From NCBI RefSeq assembly GCF_965641715.1, contig NZ_OZ282453.1: 64,000 bases of DNA; one strand, given 5' to 3'. Under the pieces are notes generated by a model. The model saw only the letters and a program-made list of their open reading frames with translations. It did no database searches and was not told where the DNA came from. The number at the start of each line of letters is the position of its first letter. Positions within the stretch are counted from its first letter, which is position 1. The position numbers and the translations under genes are program-made. Shown piece by piece: positions 12,172 through 60,016 of the stretch. Origin of the DNA: Escherichia coli (GTDB lineage: Bacteria; Pseudomonadota; Gammaproteobacteria; Enterobacterales; Enterobacteriaceae).

Positions 12172-12259
12172 CAGGCAGAATTGCCGGAGTAACAAAAAAG
12201 CGATAGATTACGCGCGGGTGCCTTTCGGCTGATGGTCGGAGGGAATACCCGAAGGCCAG

Positions 12260-12496
12260 ATGTGGAAAGGCCCCGGAAAACATTTCTGTTTAACCGAGGC
12301 CCTAACACTTCTTACCTTCGCAAGTAGAAGGTTAGCGCCTCTCCTCTCAGGAGACAAGCGTTATGACGCAAATTCCGTTAAAAACCCTGTTACTTTGCAT
12401 AACTGCGGTAGCGATAATCTGGATCCTCCACACATCACCGTGCGAGTTACGATTCAGGTTTGCTGGCACGGAAATTGCGGCATTCTTACTATGTAA
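12260..12496 (+). CDS. mok-like overlapping reading frame of the hok locus
   Basis: 78-codon frame starts 103 nt upstream of hok and overlaps it out of frame, as mok does in hok/sok loci; GAAGG precedes the ATG. Confidence 0.4.
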   Translation: MWKGPGKHFCLTEALTLLTFASRRLAPLLSGDKRYDANSVKNPVTLHNCGSDNLDPPHITVRVTIQVCWHGNCGILTM

Positions 12497-12503
12497 TAAG
12501 TAA
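12363..12503 (+). CDS. Hok/Gef-family type I toxin (small membrane peptide)
   Basis: 46 aa MTQIPLKTLLLCITAVAIIWILHTSPCELRFRFAGTEIAAFLLCNK: hydrophobic helix followed by C-E-L-R-F-R and E-I-A-A-F motifs. AGGAG lies 9 nt upstream. Below the 60-aa cutoff of the ORF track. Confidence 0.75.
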   Translation: MTQIPLKTLLLCITAVAIIWILHTSPCELRFRFAGTEIAAFLLCNK

Positions 12504-12590
12504 GATAACCGCGACGGGGGAGTAATCCCCCGTCAATCGGTTGCTAAGGTTGGTCGAAACGGCATCCTATCTCACAGACATGAACAACAA

Positions 12591-12622
12591 ACCCGCAGCG
12601 TAAAAACTGCGGGTTTTCTTTT
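12591..12622 (+). terminator. Intrinsic terminator downstream of hok
   Basis: acccgcag-cgtaaaaa-ctgcgggt hairpin followed by tttctttttg. Confidence 0.6.
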
Positions 12623-12670
12623 TGCTACCCTCACAAATGAGGGCACCATACATAAGCAATAGGCATAACA

Positions 12671-12710
12671 GATCGATGCAATAAATCCGATCGATAAAAA
12701 CGATCGATTT
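12671..12710. promoter_or_regulatory. Cluster of three GATCGAT (Dam-site) repeats upstream of com
   Basis: GATCGAT at 12671, 12690 and 12703, 40-80 bp upstream of the com start. Resembles the three-GATC regulatory region of the Mu mom operon. Confidence 0.4.
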
Positions 12711-12752
12711 GTTATCATATCGGCAGCAGTAACCACACAAGAGGTGCCGCAA

Positions 12753-12950
12753 ATGACGCAAAATGTACGATGCAAAAATTGCAACAAACTACTTGCCCGC
12801 GCCTCATTTCACTACATTGAAATAAAATGTCCGCGCTGCAAAACACTTAACCAGATAACGAGAGCCATCGAGCACCCCACACACATGAGGAGTTATGACC
12901 GTGGGGATCGCAATCCAGCACCAACCAGCACATACGCCAGAACACACTAA
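12753..12950 (+). CDS. com: Com-like zinc-finger translational regulator (Mu Com family)
   Basis: 65 aa, MTQNVRCKNCNKLLARASFHYIEIKCPRCK..., matching the Mu Com CKNCNKLL...IEI(R/K)CPRCK pattern. AAGAGG RBS; 3' end overlaps the methyltransferase start. Confidence 0.7.
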   Translation: MTQNVRCKNCNKLLARASFHYIEIKCPRCKTLNQITRAIEHPTHMRSYDRGDRNPAPTSTYARTH

Positions 12951-13701
12951 GGTTTATCAGACTGACAATGTCACGCTCTGTTGTGGGAATGCACTGGAAA
13001 TATTGCCGCTGATTGAGCCAGAAAGCATTGATGCCTTAATCACTGACCCGCCTTACAGTTCGGGTGCGACACACAAGGCCGGACGCACCAATCAGGGCAG
13101 CCATGCAAAATATCTGAACGGCGAGAACCTTCACCGCTTTGATGGGTTCGCGGGTGAAAACATGGACGCCCGTTCGTGGGCTTACTGGACACAATTATGG
13201 ATGGCACAGGCACACCGCGCAGTCAGGCCAGGCGGTTATGCCATGGTATTTACTGACTGGCGACAACTACCAGCTTTAACCGATGCGTTTCAGGCCAGTG
13301 GCTTTACATGGCGCGGCATCATTGCGTGGAACAAGGGGAGGGGGTCACGAACACCACATACCGGGTATTTCCGGCATCAGTGCGAATACATCGTCTGGGG
13401 CAGCAAAGGCCATTTAGATAAATCGCCTTCGGGGCCGTTCGACGGCTGCATGACGTACCCGGTTATCCCGTCAAAGAAAATGCACCCGACCGGAAAACCA
13501 GAAGAACTAATGGCGGAACTGGTCAGGACTGTGAATAGTGGCGGAACAGTCCTTGATCCTTTTATGGGGTCAGGGACAACGGGTGTGGCTGCACTGAAAG
13601 CAGGGCGAAAATTTATTGGTATAGAAACCAGTGATCATTATTTTGAGGTAGCAGCGCAGCGGCTTCGGGGGACTATTACCACAACCATTTCGGCTACATA
13701 A
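12895..13701 (+). CDS. DNA methyltransferase, beta-class (N6-adenine or N4-cytosine), no restriction partner in window
   Basis: 268 aa with motif order DPPY before FMGSGTT. No restriction endonuclease nearby. Start overlaps the end of com by 56 nt. Confidence 0.85.
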   Translation: MTVGIAIQHQPAHTPEHTKVYQTDNVTLCCGNALEILPLIEPESIDALITDPPYSSGATHKAGRTNQGSHAKYLNGENLHRFDGFAGENMDARSWAYWTQLWMAQAHRAVRPGGYAMVFTDWRQLPALTDAFQASGFTWRGIIAWNKGRGSRTPHTGYFRHQCEYIVWGSKGHLDKSPSGPFDGCMTYPVIPSKKMHPTGKPEELMAELVRTVNSGGTVLDPFMGSGTTGVAALKAGRKFIGIETSDHYFEVAAQRLRGTITTTISAT

Positions 13702-17044: not shown

Positions 17045-17106
17045 CCTAAAGAATCAAGACGATCCGGTACGCGTGATTTTCTTTTCACATTAATCTGGTC
17101 AATAAC

Positions 17107-17134
17107 CTTGAATAATTGAGGGATGACCTCATTT
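17107..17134 (+). promoter_or_regulatory. Sigma-32 heat-shock promoter of clpB
   Basis: CTTGAA, 14 nt spacer, CCTCATTT (consensus CCCCATnT), about 40 bp upstream of the clpB start. Confidence 0.65.
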
Positions 17135-17173
17135 AATCTCCAGTAGCAACTTTGATCCGTTATGGGAGGAGTT

Positions 17174-19747
17174 ATGCGTCTGGATCGTCTTACTAATAAA
17201 TTCCAGCTTGCTCTTGCCGATGCCCAATCACTTGCACTCGGGCACGACAACCAATTTATCGAACCACTTCATTTAATGAGCGCCCTGCTGAATCAGGAAG
17301 GGGGTTCGGTTAGTCCTTTATTAACATCCGCTGGCATAAATGCTGGCCAGTTGCGCACAGATATCAATCAGGCATTAAATCGTTTACCGCAGGTTGAAGG
17401 TACTGGTGGTGATGTCCAGCCATCACAGGATCTGGTGCGCGTTCTGAATCTTTGCGACAAGCTGGCGCAAAAACGTGGTGATAACTTTATCTCGTCAGAA
17501 CTGTTCGTTCTGGCGGCACTTGAGTCTCGCGGCACGCTGGCCGACATCCTGAAAGCAGCAGGGGCGACCACCGCCAACATTACTCAAGCGATTGAACAAA
17601 TGCGTGGAGGTGAAAGCGTGAACGATCAAGGTGCTGAAGACCAACGTCAGGCTTTGAAAAAATATACCATCGACCTTACCGAACGAGCCGAACAGGGCAA
17701 ACTCGATCCGGTGATTGGTCGTGATGAAGAAATTCGCCGTACCATTCAGGTGCTGCAACGTCGTACTAAAAATAACCCGGTACTGATTGGTGAACCCGGC
17801 GTCGGTAAAACTGCCATCGTTGAAGGTCTGGCGCAGCGTATTATCAACGGCGAAGTGCCGGAAGGGTTGAAAGGCCGCCGGGTACTGGCGCTGGATATGG
17901 GCGCGCTGGTGGCTGGGGCGAAATATCGCGGTGAGTTTGAAGAACGTTTAAAAGGCGTGCTTAACGATCTTGCCAAACAGGAAGGCAACGTCATCCTGTT
18001 TATCGACGAATTACATACCATGGTCGGCGCGGGTAAAGCCGATGGCGCAATGGACGCCGGAAACATGCTGAAACCGGCGCTGGCGCGTGGTGAATTGCAC
18101 TGCGTAGGTGCCACGACGCTTGACGAATATCGCCAGTACATCGAAAAAGATGCTGCGCTGGAACGTCGTTTCCAGAAAGTGTTTGTTGCCGAGCCTTCTG
18201 TTGAAGATACCATTGCGATTCTGCGTGGCCTGAAAGAACGTTACGAATTGCACCACCATGTGCAAATTACTGACCCGGCAATTGTTGCAGCGGCGACGTT
18301 GTCTCATCGCTATATTGCTGACCGTCAGCTGCCGGATAAAGCCATCGACCTGATCGATGAAGCAGCATCCAGCATTCGTATGCAGATTGACTCAAAACCA
18401 GAAGAACTCGACCGACTCGATCGCCGTATCATCCAGCTCAAACTGGAACAACAGGCGTTAATGAAAGAGTCTGATGAAGCCAGTAAAAAACGTCTGGATA
18501 TGCTCAACGAAGAACTGAGCGACAAAGAACGTCAGTACTCCGAGTTAGAAGAAGAGTGGAAAGCAGAGAAAGCATCGCTTTCTGGTACGCAGACCATTAA
18601 AGCGGAACTGGAACAGGCGAAAATCGCTATTGAACAGGCTCGCCGTGTGGGTGACCTGGCGCGGATGTCTGAACTGCAATACGGCAAAATCCCGGAACTG
18701 GAAAAGCAACTGGAAGCCGCAACGCAGCTCGAAGGCAAAACTATGCGTCTGTTGCGTAATAAAGTGACCGACGCCGAAATTGCTGAAGTGCTGGCGCGTT
18801 GGACGGGGATTCCGGTTTCTCGCATGATGGAAAGCGAGCGCGAAAAACTGCTGCGTATGGAGCAAGAACTGCACCATCGCGTAATTGGTCAGAACGAAGC
18901 GGTTGATGCGGTATCTAACGCTATTCGTCGTAGCCGTGCGGGGCTGGCGGATCCAAATCGCCCGATTGGTTCATTCCTGTTCCTCGGCCCAACTGGTGTG
19001 GGGAAAACAGAGCTTTGTAAGGCGCTGGCGAACTTTATGTTTGATAGCGACGAGGCGATGGTCCGTATCGATATGTCCGAGTTTATGGAGAAACACTCGG
19101 TGTCTCGTCTGGTTGGTGCGCCTCCGGGATATGTTGGTTATGAAGAAGGTGGCTACCTGACCGAAGCTGTGCGTCGTCGTCCGTATTCCGTCATCCTGCT
19201 GGATGAAGTGGAAAAAGCGCATCCGGATGTCTTCAACATTCTGTTGCAGGTACTGGATGATGGGCGTCTGACTGACGGGCAGGGGAGAACGGTCGACTTC
19301 CGTAATACGGTTGTCATTATGACCTCTAACCTCGGTTCCGATTTGATTCAGGAACGCTTCGGTGAACTGGATTATGCGCATATGAAAGAGCTGGTGCTCG
19401 GTGTGGTAAGCCATAACTTCCGTCCGGAGTTCATTAACCGTATCGATGAAGTGGTGGTCTTCCATCCGCTGGGCGAACAGCACATTGCCTCGATTGCGCA
19501 GATTCAGTTGAAACGTCTGTACAAACGTCTGGAAGAACGTGGTTATGAAATCCACATTTCTGACGAGGCGCTGAAACTGCTGAGCGAGAACGGTTACGAT
19601 CCGGTCTATGGTGCACGTCCTTTGAAACGTGCTATCCAGCAGCAGATCGAAAACCCGTTGGCACAGCAAATACTGTCTGGTGAATTGGTTCCGGGTAAAG
19701 TTATTCGCCTGGAAGTTAATGAAGACCGGATTGTCGCCGTCCAGTAA
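17174..19747 (+). CDS. clpB: Chaperone/disaggregase ClpB
   Basis: 857 aa from [11 protein letters not shown], two AAA+ modules ([16 protein letters not shown]); GGGAGGAG RBS. Confidence 0.97.
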
Positions 19748-20188: not shown

Positions 20189-21730
<1,542 letters not shown>

Positions 21731-21815
21731 CCTTAAAGAAGCGTACTTTGCAGTGCTCACACAGATTGTCTGATAGAAAGTGAAAAGCAAGGCGTCTTGC
21801 GAAGCAGACTGATAC

Positions 21816-21891
21816 GTCCCCTTCGTCTAGAGGCCCAGGACACCGCCCTTTCACGGCGGTAACAGGGGTTCGAATCCCCTAGGGGACGCCA
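21816..21891 (+). tRNA. gltW: tRNA-Glu (anticodon UUC) in the 16S-23S spacer
   Basis: GTCCCCTTCGTCTAGAGGCCCAGGACACCGCCCTTTCACGGCGGTAACAGGGGTTCGAATCCCCTAGGGGACGCCA. Confidence 0.97.
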
Positions 21892-22084
21892 CTTGCTGGT
21901 TTGTGAGTGAAAGTCGCCGACCTTAATATCTCAAAACTCATCTTCGGGTGATGTTTGAGATATTTGCTCTTTAAAAATCTGGATCAAGCTGAAAATTGAA
22001 ACACTGAACAACGAAAGTTGTTCGTGAGTCTCTCAAATTTTCGCAACACGATGATGGATCGCAAGAAACATCTTCGGGTTGTGA

Positions 22085-24988
<2,904 letters not shown>

Positions 24989-25080
24989 ACAACGCCGAAG
25001 CTGTTTTGGCGGATGAGAGAAGATTTTCAGCCTGATACAGATTAAATCAGAACGCAGAAGCGGTCTGATAAAACAGAATT

Positions 25081-25200
25081 TGCCTGGCGGCCGTAGCGCG
25101 GTGGTCCCACCTGACCCCATGCCGAACTCAGAAGTGAAACGCCGTAGCGCCGATGGTAGTGTGGGGTCTCCCCATGCGAGAGTAGGGAACTGCCAGGCAT
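25081..25200 (+). rRNA. rrfG: 5S ribosomal RNA
   Basis: TGCCTGGCGGCCGTAGCGCGGTGGTCCCACC ... GAACTGCCAGGCAT; 120 nt. Confidence 0.97.
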
Positions 25201-50476: not shown

Positions 50477-50896
50477 AAATAATACCGTTCTCTTTAAAAA
50501 GTAAAACCCCCGAACTGGTAAGGAACGGGGGTTTTACTTTGTAACTTTAATTTAGTGCAGCACGCACCCTCAACAACAGCGATTATGGATCAGGGTAGTT
50601 ATCTTTTACAAGCAACTTGCAATCTTTATCATAAAAACTCGAGCCTTTACGAAGAAAGCGATATTGATGGCAAGATTAACGTGACCGCCAATTCGTAAGT
50701 ACATTAAAATTGGTTTCGTTATTGGCGATTTTGCTGTGCTTTACACCATGCCACAGAATTCCCCCATTGAAACGAGTGGTGTCGTCAAAGCTCTGGTGTG
50801 GAGTGCAGCATGCACCCTCAATAACTCGCACGTTCAGTTTTGGGGAGATGTAAGGGCTAATCTGAACGGCTGCATTCCTTGTTTAAGGAAAAACGA

Positions 50897-59544: not shown

Positions 59545-60016
59545 TGTCTGTAAATCACGACAATGGGTGGTTTGCTGTGTCGCTTTTTGGTGACATTTAA
59601 CTCATTGATTTTAATGTCATCTAATAAGTTTTTCTTAAGTTGTCTCTTTTTAGCGACACAGTGGCTGATTTACATTCAAATAGCGGGGAAGCCATAAACC
59701 CCTCAAAGCAACGTATAATCAGTACGTTACCAAACTATTTTCTTTATTGGCACAGTTACTGCATAATAGTAACCAGTGGCTCATTCACCGACTTATGTCA
59801 GCCCCTTCGGGACGTGCTACATAAAATTCGAATGACGCACAACAAGGTGCCTGCCGTCCAACTTCTGATATCAGCGTAGCTATATCAACCATCGGGCGAA
59901 ACGTCGAGTTAGGCACCGCCTTATTCCATAACAAAGCCGGGTAATTCCCGGCTTTGTTGTATCTGAACTTCCCCTCGGTTAGCATCAGGCTATTCGCGTC
60001 TGACGAGAGTAACACC

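What the first reader, a model, noticed from the sequence alone, without database searches (positions are those of the whole stretch)
12180..12625. Hok-family type I toxin locus (hok/mok, with predicted antisense Sok) inside the prophage
A 46-aa ORF at 12363-12503, too short for the ORF track, encodes MTQIPLKTLLLCITAVAIIWILHTSPCELRFRFAGTEIAAFLLCNK, which has the Hok/Gef signature: a hydrophobic helix followed by C-E-L-R-F-R and E-I-A-A-F. A 78-codon frame (12260-12496) overlaps it out of frame from upstream, as mok does. A GC hairpin (12513-12534) and an intrinsic terminator (12591-12622) follow. 5' segment gggtgcctttcgg (12216-12228) is roughly complementary to 3' segment tcgaaacggcatcc (12554-12567), which would fit the long-range 5'-3' pairing seen in hok mRNAs. 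Hok/Sok modules are known to give post-segregational killing and phage exclusion, so a copy between ogr and the com-methyltransferase module looks like defence or addiction cargo. The antisense RNA itself could not be placed from sequence alone.
Basis: partly seen in the sequence, partly recalled or inferred. Interest (0 to 1): 0.7.

Follow-up and report, generated by a model that had tools for sequence, protein, structure and literature searches.

The report
Ordinary Hok/Sok toxin-antitoxin in prophage
This is a real but already catalogued Hok/Sok-type toxin-antitoxin module, a small membrane-killing peptide held in check by an antisense RNA; it sits next to the ogr gene of a P2-like prophage of E. 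coli, as in many related phages.

Summary
The 46-aa ORF (12363-12503) matches Pfam Hok/Gef (E 2.9e-8) and PHROG 251 (E 2.8e-13). The leader matches Rfam sok/hok-leader RF01794 (E 8e-9, but below the gathering score). The full-length mRNA (12216-12622) folds with its 5' end paired to 12549-12567 (z -9.6), and six relatives close the same way. Removing that 3' site flips the 5' end onto 12262-12274 and frees the AUG, the classic hok refolding switch.

The window is E. coli. RefSeq already names this protein Hok/Gef family (WP_032140709.1). The exact peptide is listed in a 2025-26 Hok catalogue. 1256 of 5426 complete E. coli genomes carry related DNA. P88-like phages carry the same ogr-hok arrangement.

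- **mok:** the 78-codon frame is not conserved. 33 of 61 unique relatives have no overlapping upstream ORF, so it is probably fortuitous.
- **Sok:** it lies at about 12321-12262 on the minus strand, not 12190-12280. Its promoter (TTGTCT, 17 nt, TAACCT) has a -10 that aligns with the sokW -10 whose mutation abolished antitoxin activity.

The biological role (addiction, exclusion or lysis help) is untested. Interest is low.

The parts
12181..12209 (+). hok promoter: -35 TTGCCG (12181-12186), 17-nt spacer, -10 TAGATT (12204-12209)
   Evidence: Read from the sequence. It has 8 of 12 consensus matches, so it falls below the scan's cut-off. TTGCC and T-A-n-A-n-T are invariant in 8 loci whose upstream flanks are unrelated, and homology between P2-like and lambdoid contexts begins exactly here. 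Inferred, not mapped.
12216..12622 (+). full-length hok mRNA (about 407 nt), from GGGUGCC to the terminator U run
   Evidence: The Rfam RF01794 match starts at model position 1 at 12216. The terminator is at 12589-12616 plus a T run. The fold has z -9.6. Both ends are inferred.
12216..12233 (+). tac-like 5' element, which pairs alternatively with fbi or ucb
   Evidence: It pairs with 12549-12567 in the full-length minimum-energy fold. It pairs with 12262-12274 once the 3' site is removed and in the RNAalifold consensus.
12262..12274 (+). ucb-like element (GUGGAAAGGCCCC), the alternative partner of the 5' end
   Evidence: It corresponds to the first hairpin of the Rfam model.
12260..12496 (+).
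   Evidence: Present in the window but not conserved in relatives. It has no family match.
12262..12321 (-). predicted Sok-like antisense RNA (about 58-62 nt): a 5' tail of about 19 nt, a long hairpin (12299-12269), and a short U tract
   Evidence: The antisense strand folds at -30.7 kcal/mol, z -5.05. The hairpin is kept in 20 variants, with 2 compensatory pairs. The position follows from the promoter. The ends are inferred, with no transcript data.
12329..12357 (-). sok promoter: -35 TTGTCT (12357-12352), 17-nt spacer, -10 TAACCT (12334-12329)
   Evidence: AGGTTAGCGCCTC and the CAAG of the -35 are invariant in 32 sequences. The -10 aligns with the TAACCT of sokW in Sp5. Mutating that sokW element (primers YO-421/422) abolished antitoxin activity.
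12341..12353 (+). hok Shine-Dalgarno GGAG (12350-12353), held in a small hairpin with CUCC (12341-12344)
   Evidence: probability unpaired 0.03-0.08. The CUCC...GGAG pattern is kept in all aligned relatives.
12363..12503 (+). hok: 46-aa Hok/Gef family toxin
   Evidence: It is annotated as WP_032140709.1 Hok/Gef family protein. The exact peptide is entry 1818 in the Hok catalogue.
12512..12535 (+). G+C-rich hairpin just after the stop codon
   Evidence: It is conserved with compensatory changes (columns 328/339 and 329/338) and is shared with hokW of Sp5.
12549..12567 (+). fbi-like 3' element complementary to the mRNA 5' end
   Evidence: On 32 sequences, 91% of cells are paired, against 39-56% when the partners are slid.
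12589..12622 (+). intrinsic terminator of hok mRNA
   Evidence: It is shared by P88, Chuche and E. albertii.

Best explanation
Region 12181-12622 is a complete hok/sok-type type I toxin-antitoxin module carried by a P88-like (P2-like) prophage of E. coli.

**Proposed mechanism**
1. A weak constitutive promoter makes a roughly 407-nt hok mRNA. It is born inert because its 5' end (12216-12233) is clamped to a 3' site (12549-12567).
2. Slow 3' trimming removes that site. The 5' end then flips onto 12262-12274, the leader refolds, and the start codon is exposed.
3. A stronger antisense promoter inside the leader makes a short-lived RNA of about 60 nt (Sok, about 12321-12262, minus strand). It pairs with the refolded leader and causes RNase III cleavage.
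4. If transcription of the locus stops, Sok disappears first. This would happen on loss of the prophage or on host shut-off by an infecting phage.
5. The stable mRNA pool is then translated, and the 46-aa peptide inserts in the inner membrane and kills the cell.

**Shown versus inferred**
- Shown here: family membership of the peptide, the two mutually exclusive pairings, conservation of both promoters, and homology with validated loci.
- Inferred from the R1 and Sp5 systems: transcript ends, processing, Sok instability, RNase III cleavage and killing.

Unlike R1, hok translation here probably does not depend on an overlapping mok frame. I think the most likely role is stabilising the prophage and its adjacent variable cargo (addiction), but the sequence cannot separate that from phage exclusion or lysis help.
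For: - **Peptide:** Pfam HOK_GEF E 2.9e-8, PHROG 251 'MokW-like host killing' E 2.8e-13, and weak NCBIfam HokA/Hok hits. It carries 6 of the 7 residues reported as more than 80% conserved in Hok (C12, T14, C27, E28, E37, M1).
- **Leader:** Rfam RF01794 covers the full model at 12216-12374, E 8e-9.
- **Folding:** 5'-3' closure in the window and in P88, Chuche, TL-2011c, 1720a-02, C. braakii and E. albertii. Complementarity is kept in 91% of cells, against 39-56% when slid. The refolding switch appears when the 3' site is removed, and the AUG goes from 0.28 to 0.94 unpaired.
- **Sok promoter:** the -10 is invariant and aligns with the experimentally mutated sokW -10.
- **Toxicity of relatives:** clusters 72 and 79 were cloned in a set where 42 of 45 were toxic, and the three non-toxic ones are other sequences.
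- **Existing annotation:** RefSeq names it Hok/Gef family.
- **Canonical mechanism:** reviewed in PMC4147584.
Against: - No transcript, processing or toxicity data exist for this allele.
- The Rfam score (47.4) is below the gathering score (59), and the NCBIfam scores are far below their cut-offs.
- The peptide has Pro where more than 80% of Hok peptides have Leu before the conserved Cys.
- There is no conserved mok, which in R1 is required for hok translation. The Shine-Dalgarno sequence stays paired in the predicted refolded form, so how translation starts is open.
- True covariation for the 5'-3' pairing is weak (2 pairs), because my sampling fixed the 5' arm.
- Chromosomal hok loci of K-12 are reported not to mediate killing.
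Confidence: 0.85

Rival explanations
1. The molecular module is the same, but its role is to exclude other phages by abortive infection. An infecting lytic phage shuts off host transcription, Sok decays, and Hok kills the cell before progeny are made, as reported for R1 hok/sok against T4.
For: The R1 precedent (Pecota and Wood 1996) is cited. The module sits at the edge of a variable cargo slot of P2-like phages, and P2-like phages are known to carry defence hotspots.
Against: Hok has no model in PADLOC. A survey found hok no more often near defence systems than random placement would give, 12% against 9.4%. The P2 hotspot described in PMC9122126 is next to cos, and that paper mentions neither hok nor ogr. 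hok is the constant element here, not one of the variable ones.
Confidence: 0.25
2. The molecular module is the same, but its role is to help the phage's own lysis and release after induction, as shown for hokW-sokW of the Stx2 prophage Sp5.
For: In Sp5, deleting hokW-sokW halved released phage, and mitomycin C lowered sokW while raising HokW (abstract). The sok promoter and the post-stop hairpin are homologous.
Against: Sp5 is an SOS-inducible lambdoid phage, whereas P2-like phages are classically not SOS-inducible (established knowledge). The peptides are distant, and the Sp5 locus has an in-frame N-terminal extension that is absent here.
Confidence: 0.15
3. The locus is an inactive passenger. 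It may be transcribed but is never activated, like the chromosomal hokA, hokB and hokC loci that do not give post-segregational killing.
For: Chromosomal hok loci were reported to be inactive in killing assays. This allele has a Leu-to-Pro change next to the conserved Cys and no conserved mok. The host prophage carries a frameshifted tape-measure gene in the identical UMNF18 copy.
Against: Both promoters, tac, ucb, fbi, the Sok hairpin and an intact ORF are conserved across P2-like and lambdoid phages and into Citrobacter. Alanine changes at the conserved residues, including L30A, did not abolish R1 Hok toxicity, and 42 of 45 diverse homologs were toxic. The Pro variant recurs in other alleles.
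Confidence: 0.12
4. Regulation is exactly as in R1. The 78-codon frame 12260-12496 is a true mok whose translation is needed for hok translation and is blocked by Sok.
For: The frame exists and ends 7 nt before the hok stop. Its ATG follows GAAGG and is invariant in all relatives.
Against: In 33 of 61 unique relatives no ATG/GTG/TTG ORF overlaps hok from upstream. In the five stop-containing relatives inspected individually (P88, Chuche, 1720a-02, TL-2011c, Lyz12581Vzw) there is not even a near-cognate start after the stop. The ORF from this ATG runs 6 to 79 codons and overlaps hok in only 9 of 61. The ATG lies inside a conserved stem, which explains its invariance. The translation matches no family.
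Confidence: 0.08

Closest known systems
hok/sok (parB) of plasmid R1, the founding type I toxin-antitoxin system
   Same: The element order is the same: promoter, long structured leader, cis-antisense RNA gene inside the leader, small hydrophobic toxin, G+C hairpin after the stop, a 3' element complementary to the very 5' end, then the terminator. The mRNA length is similar (about 407 nt here against about 400 nt). The sok promoter has the same layout (TTGnnn, 17 nt, TAnCCT). The predicted tac-fbi to tac-ucb switch is present (R1 details from established knowledge).
   Different: The peptide is 46 aa rather than 52 and only distantly similar. There is no conserved out-of-frame mok. The module sits on a P2-like prophage, not a plasmid.
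hokW-sokW of Stx2 prophage Sp5 (Takada et al. 2021, PMC8621323)
   Same: It is a prophage-borne hok/sok. The aligned blocks include the mRNA 5' end, ucb, the sok -35 and -10 (TAACCT at the same column), and the post-stop hairpin. The sokW -10 was mutated experimentally, with loss of antitoxin activity.
   Different: HokW is 51 aa and belongs to another sequence cluster. Sp5 has an upstream in-frame ATG giving a 70-aa extended form. The host is a lambdoid, SOS-inducible phage, and the demonstrated role is lysis and release help.
46-aa Hok of Escherichia phages P88, Chuche and P88_4B11, Citrobacter phage Shae_phiSM, and Stx phages (clusters 72, 79 and 82 of the Hok catalogue, bioRxiv 10.1101/2025.08.07.668861)
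   Same: The leader is near-identical. In the P2-like members, hok sits in the same place directly after ogr, and Chuche even has the same com-methyltransferase pair. The peptide length and C-terminal AAFLxC motif are shared. Representatives 72_1621, 72_1589 and 79_1563 were cloned for toxicity tests.
   Different: The window's coding region is a different allele: 23 of 46 residues identical to the P88 type and 30 of 46 to the 1720a-02 type (my count). It has Pro26 before the conserved Cys. The exact peptide is catalogued (entry 1818), but I did not find it in the tested set.
Chromosomal hokA-E/sok loci of E. coli K-12
   Same: Same family and the same kind of regulatory RNA architecture.
   Different: Those are chromosomal loci (hokD lies in the defective Qin prophage) that are often disrupted or inactive in killing assays. 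This one lies on a P2-like prophage and is conserved across phage lineages.

Membership tests
Hok/Gef toxin family (Pfam PF01848) | Significant match to the family profile | tested here: met
   Pfam HOK_GEF E 2.9e-8, 33.6 bits, covering residues 9-44 and model positions 7-42 of 42. PHROG 251 E 2.8e-13. Relatives carry a precomputed PF01848 assignment.
Hok/Gef toxin family (Pfam PF01848) | NCBIfam curated models (HokA equivalog NF007290; Hok subfamily NF007279) at their score cut-offs | tested here: not met
   Scores are 27.7 bits against a cut-off of 89, and 25.2 against 73. It is therefore not a HokA orthologue. RefSeq still names it Hok/Gef family.
Hok/Gef toxin family (Pfam PF01848) | Peptide of about 50 aa with an N-terminal hydrophobic helix and the conserved residues M1, C16, T18, L30, C31, E32, E41 (logo numbering) | tested here: met
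   The peptide is 46 aa with a hydrophobic stretch at L6-L22. C12, T14, C27, E28, E37 and M1 are present, and Leu is replaced by Pro26. That is six of seven.
Hok/Gef toxin family (Pfam PF01848) | Kills or arrests cells when expressed (membrane depolarisation) | not testable with these tools
   Only indirect evidence is available: relatives from clusters 72 and 79 were in a set where 42 of 45 were toxic.
[quoted passage not shown] | Cis-encoded antisense RNA gene with its own promoter inside the toxin mRNA leader | tested here: inconclusive
   The promoter TTGTCT, 17 nt, TAACCT is invariant at its key positions and aligns with the validated sokW -10. The antisense hairpin has z -5.05. No transcript data exist.
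[quoted passage not shown] | Long-range pairing of the mRNA 5' end (tac) with a 3' element (fbi), and an alternative tac-ucb pairing | tested here: met
   These are predictions supported by conserved complementarity. Covariation is weak.
[quoted passage not shown] | Overlapping mok reading frame whose translation is required for hok translation | tested here: not met
   A frame exists in the window, but it is absent or different in most relatives.
[quoted passage not shown] | Match to the Rfam model RF01794 at its gathering score | tested here: not met
   The score is 47.4 bits against a gathering score of 59. The E-value is 8e-9 and the model is covered end to end.
[quoted passage not shown] | Stable mRNA activated by 3' processing, unstable Sok, and RNase III cleavage of the duplex | not testable with these tools
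   This needs northern blots or RNA-seq with rifampicin chase in wild-type and rnc strains.

The most novel reading that the evidence does not exclude
The phage-borne 46-aa Hok clade (P88-like and Stx-phage loci, including this one) has dispensed with Mok. Under this reading, hok translation is controlled directly by the tac-fbi/ucb refolding switch and by Sok-triggered cleavage, without translational coupling to an upstream frame. That would make it a mok-independent variant of the hok/sok paradigm. The module would also act as a fixed anchor that stabilises a variable cargo slot next to ogr in P2-like phages.
Probability: 0.4. Interest if true: 0.3.

Novelty: already known. Interest (0 to 1): 0.13.

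Why it matters
It matters little beyond correct annotation. The family, its presence in prophages, and this exact peptide are already on record.

The useful products are a base-level map of the regulatory RNA elements, which genome annotation omits (hok and sok promoters, Sok, tac, ucb, fbi), and the observation that this phage clade lacks a conserved mok. If experiments confirmed that, it would show that the textbook requirement for mok-hok coupling is not general.

The constant ogr-hok adjacency next to a variable gene slot is also a handy landmark for finding cargo in P88-like prophages.

Tried and rejected
- **mok as a conserved gene:** rejected after frame analysis of 61 unique relatives.
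- **Sok at 12190-12280:** rejected. The conserved promoter and hairpin place it at about 12321-12262.
- **Formal covariation for tac-fbi:** only 2 compensatory pairs, because the IMG/VR sample was fetched with a pattern that fixes the 5' arm. The divergent C. braakii and 1720a-02 loci still close 5' to 3'.
- **Word-indexed protein search:** it returned only 6 close hits for so short a peptide and added little.
- **Genome-wide species scan with a leader pattern:** it found only Escherichia and Citrobacter, plus contigs in unrelated MAGs or assemblies that carry the E. coli-type locus (probably contamination), and three chance matches.
- **PADLOC:** no Hok model.
- **P2 defence-hotspot paper (PMC9122126):** it mentions neither hok nor ogr.
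- **Literature search for hok in P2-like phages:** nothing specific.
- **Not attempted:** structure prediction of a 46-aa membrane peptide was judged uninformative.

Full report
**What is in the sequence**

ORF 12363-12503 encodes MTQIPLKTLLLCITAVAIIWILHTSPCELRFRFAGTEIAAFLLCNK, and a 78-codon ORF (12260-12496) overlaps it in another frame. A G+C hairpin lies at 12512-12535, and a terminator-like hairpin at 12589-12616 is followed by a T run.

**Family evidence**

- The peptide matches Pfam HOK_GEF (PF01848) with E 2.9e-8 over almost the whole model.
- It matches PHROG 251 'MokW-like host killing' with E 2.8e-13.
- NCBIfam's HokA and Hok-subfamily models match only weakly, far below their curated cut-offs. 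This is a divergent Hok, not an orthologue of a named K-12 gene.
- Rfam's 'sok' model RF01794 matches the + strand at 12216-12374, end to end, with E 8e-9 but 47.4 bits against a gathering score of 59.
- That model's consensus starts at the hok mRNA 5' end and ends in AUG. It therefore describes the hok leader that Sok targets.

**Where the window comes from and whether this is known**

The region is 100% identical to E. coli UMNF18. RefSeq annotates the ORF there as WP_032140709.1, 'Hok/Gef family protein'. Its neighbours are an ogr/Delta-like zinc-finger gene on one side and a Com-family gene plus a DNA methyltransferase on the other. raiA follows directly, so this is the right end of a P2-like prophage.

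- Related DNA occurs in 1256 of 5426 complete E. coli genomes and in 198 phage records.
- The closest phages are the P88-like Peduoviridae (Xuanwuvirus): P88, Chuche, P88_4B11 and Citrobacter phage Shae_phiSM. In those whose records annotate the upstream gene, hok follows ogr. Chuche has the same ogr-hok-com-methyltransferase order.
- A sister group of 46-aa hok loci sits after lom in Stx phages.
- A recent survey (bioRxiv 10.1101/2025.08.07.668861) catalogued 32,532 Hok loci in RefSeq genomes and 6,290 in IMG/VR phages and prophages. It found hok enriched in prophages but not near defence systems.
- The exact window peptide is entry 1818 in that survey's alignment files. The P88-type, Stx-type and 1720a-type relatives (72_1621, 72_1589, 79_1563) were cloned for toxicity tests. 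In that set 42 of 45 were toxic, and the three non-toxic ones are other sequences.
- A prophage hok/sok, hokW-sokW of Sp5, has been characterised experimentally.

The finding is therefore correct but already known.

**RNA anatomy**

Folding 12216-12622 gives -165.6 kcal/mol, against -114.8 +/- 5.3 for shuffles (z -9.6). The 5' end (nt 1-18, 12216-12233) pairs with 12549-12567, with one bulge.

The same 5'-to-3' closure appears in the minimum-energy folds of P88, Chuche, TL-2011c, 1720a-02, E. albertii and the divergent C. braakii locus. Both arms differ in the last of these. On a 32-sequence alignment, 91% of cells in this helix are standard pairs, against 39-56% when the partners are slid. 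Only two pairs show compensatory change, because my sampling pattern fixed the 5' arm.

RNAalifold instead pairs the 5' end with 12262-12274, as does the first hairpin of the Rfam model. When I delete the 3' site in silico, the window RNA makes exactly that switch. The leader rearranges, and the probability that the start codon is unpaired rises from 0.28 to 0.94.

These two mutually exclusive pairings correspond to the tac-fbi and tac-ucb states of R1 hok mRNA. In R1, 3' processing activates a stable, inert transcript (review; element names from established knowledge). The post-stop hairpin shows compensatory changes and is shared with hokW.

**Placing Sok**

On the minus strand, TTGTCT (12357-12352), a 17-nt spacer and TAACCT (12334-12329) form a promoter. 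Its TTG and its whole -10 are invariant in 32 diverse sequences.

In an alignment with the Sp5 locus, this TAACCT falls on the TAACCT of sokW. Comparing primers YO-421/422 with the Sp5 sequence shows that this is the element changed in the 'pro-less' construct that lost antitoxin activity.

A start about 7-8 nt downstream (near 12321) gives an RNA of about 60 nt:
- a variable single-stranded tail of about 19 nt;
- a long hairpin (12299-12269), which folds at -30.7 kcal/mol, z -5.05 and is kept in 20 variants;
- a short U tract ending near 12262.

The hok promoter (TTGCCG 12181-12186, 17 nt, TAGATT 12204-12209) is where homology between the P2-like and lambdoid contexts begins. Homology ends just after fbi. 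This delimits the mobile module as about 12181-12570 plus a terminator.

**The mok question**

The 78-codon frame is real in this allele but is not a conserved feature.
- In P88, Chuche, 1720a-02, TL-2011c and Lyz12581Vzw, a stop (for example TAA in CCTTAAGCAAG) closes the frame 12-14 codons before the hok ATG. No canonical or near-cognate start follows it.
- Among 61 unique relatives, 33 have no upstream overlapping ORF with ATG/GTG/TTG. The others start at +17, +45, +47 or +103, depending on indels in the Sok hairpin region.
- The ORF from the invariant ATG at +45 (12260) runs anywhere from 6 to 79 codons and overlaps hok in only 9 of 61.
- That ATG sits in a conserved stem, which accounts for its invariance. 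It also lies 5' of the Sok-complementary hairpin, whereas the R1 mok start lies just 3' of it (established knowledge).
- The translated frame matches no family.
- In Sp5, the upstream ATG is in frame with hokW and gives a 70-aa extended form. Upstream-frame arrangements therefore differ among hok lineages.

I conclude that mok is probably absent as a functional element in this clade. How hok translation begins is then open: the Shine-Dalgarno GGAG at 12350-12353 stays in a small CUCC/GGAG hairpin in both predicted states. This is the only mildly unusual aspect of the locus.

**Mechanism and role**

The most likely mechanism is the canonical one, and the molecular steps are inferred by homology. 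A stable, structurally silenced mRNA is slowly activated by 3' trimming. An abundant but unstable antisense RNA then intercepts it and RNase III destroys the duplex. If transcription stops, Sok is lost first and the peptide kills by membrane damage.

As to biological role, the sequence cannot decide among three options.
- **Prophage or cargo addiction.** I favour this because hok is the constant neighbour of ogr. In 97 of 120 IMG/VR loci hok follows ogr, while the genes after it vary: com-methyltransferase occurs in only 11 of 42 loci with enough DNA.
- **Exclusion of other phages.** The precedent is R1 against T4.
- **Lysis help.** The precedent is Sp5.

An inactive relic is less likely, given the conservation of every regulatory element across phage lineages and into Citrobacter.

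**Verdict**

The element is an already annotated and catalogued member of a very well-known family in a known kind of location. Interest is low. The only reading with some novelty is mok-independent regulation in this phage-borne clade.

Noticed in passing
window 12671-12705: Three GATC sites lie within 35 bp (12671-12674, 12689-12692, 12702-12705), each as GATCGAT. They sit just upstream of the com-like ORF (12744) and overlap the only promoter-like site the scan found (12691-12718). This recalls the Dam/OxyR-controlled promoter of the Mu com-mom operon (own knowledge).
   Followed up: no
window 12744-13701: A Com-family zinc-finger ORF (68 aa) overlaps the start of a 268-aa DNA methyltransferase. 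The methyltransferase matches PADLOC type II MTase models (E 3e-63) with no restriction partner nearby. This is a Mu com/mom-like layout, but with a methyltransferase, at the very end of the prophage next to raiA.
   Followed up: partly
window 12583-12606: ATGAACAACAAACCCGCAGCGTAA aligns with the start of the gene that follows hok in Stx phages (A1 columns 414-436; L007 CDS 1867-2268). It looks like a 7-codon remnant now fused to the terminator, which hints that the module moved between phage types together with a scrap of its neighbour.
   Followed up: no
IMG/VR loci L009-L128; phage loci L001, L002, L005, L008: In P88-like phages hok always follows ogr (97 of 120 loci), while the genes between hok and the attachment site or integrase vary. 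They include com-methyltransferase, a TagO-like gene plus a hypothetical, and others. The slot after hok behaves as a variable cargo region.
   Followed up: partly
alignment A2 columns 60-84 (window 12275-12297): The Sok-target hairpin comes in at least two sequence types (GGAAAACAUUUCUGUUUAACC and GAGUCAACUUUAACGUUAACCC), and the Sok 5' tail varies a lot. These may be specificity groups that keep co-resident hok/sok copies from cross-talking. Some genomes hold up to 4 copies.
   Followed up: no
L138 815-1027 (VT2-Sakai/Sp5): In the Sp5 hokW locus the upstream ATG is in frame with hokW and gives a 70-aa N-terminally extended product. This is not an out-of-frame mok.
   Followed up: no
window 50498-50574 (-): A second type I antitoxin RNA, ohsC (of the shoB/ohsC pair), lies in the same window at 103 bits. 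The window also holds an rRNA operon at 20189-25198, RyfD at 17055-17193, and GlmY at 59775-59922.
   Followed up: no
L130-L137 (genome-contig scan): E. coli-type hok loci turned up on short contigs of assemblies labelled Planococcaceae, Collinsella and Xanthomonas pisi. These are probably contaminating enterobacterial or phage DNA in those assemblies.
   Followed up: no
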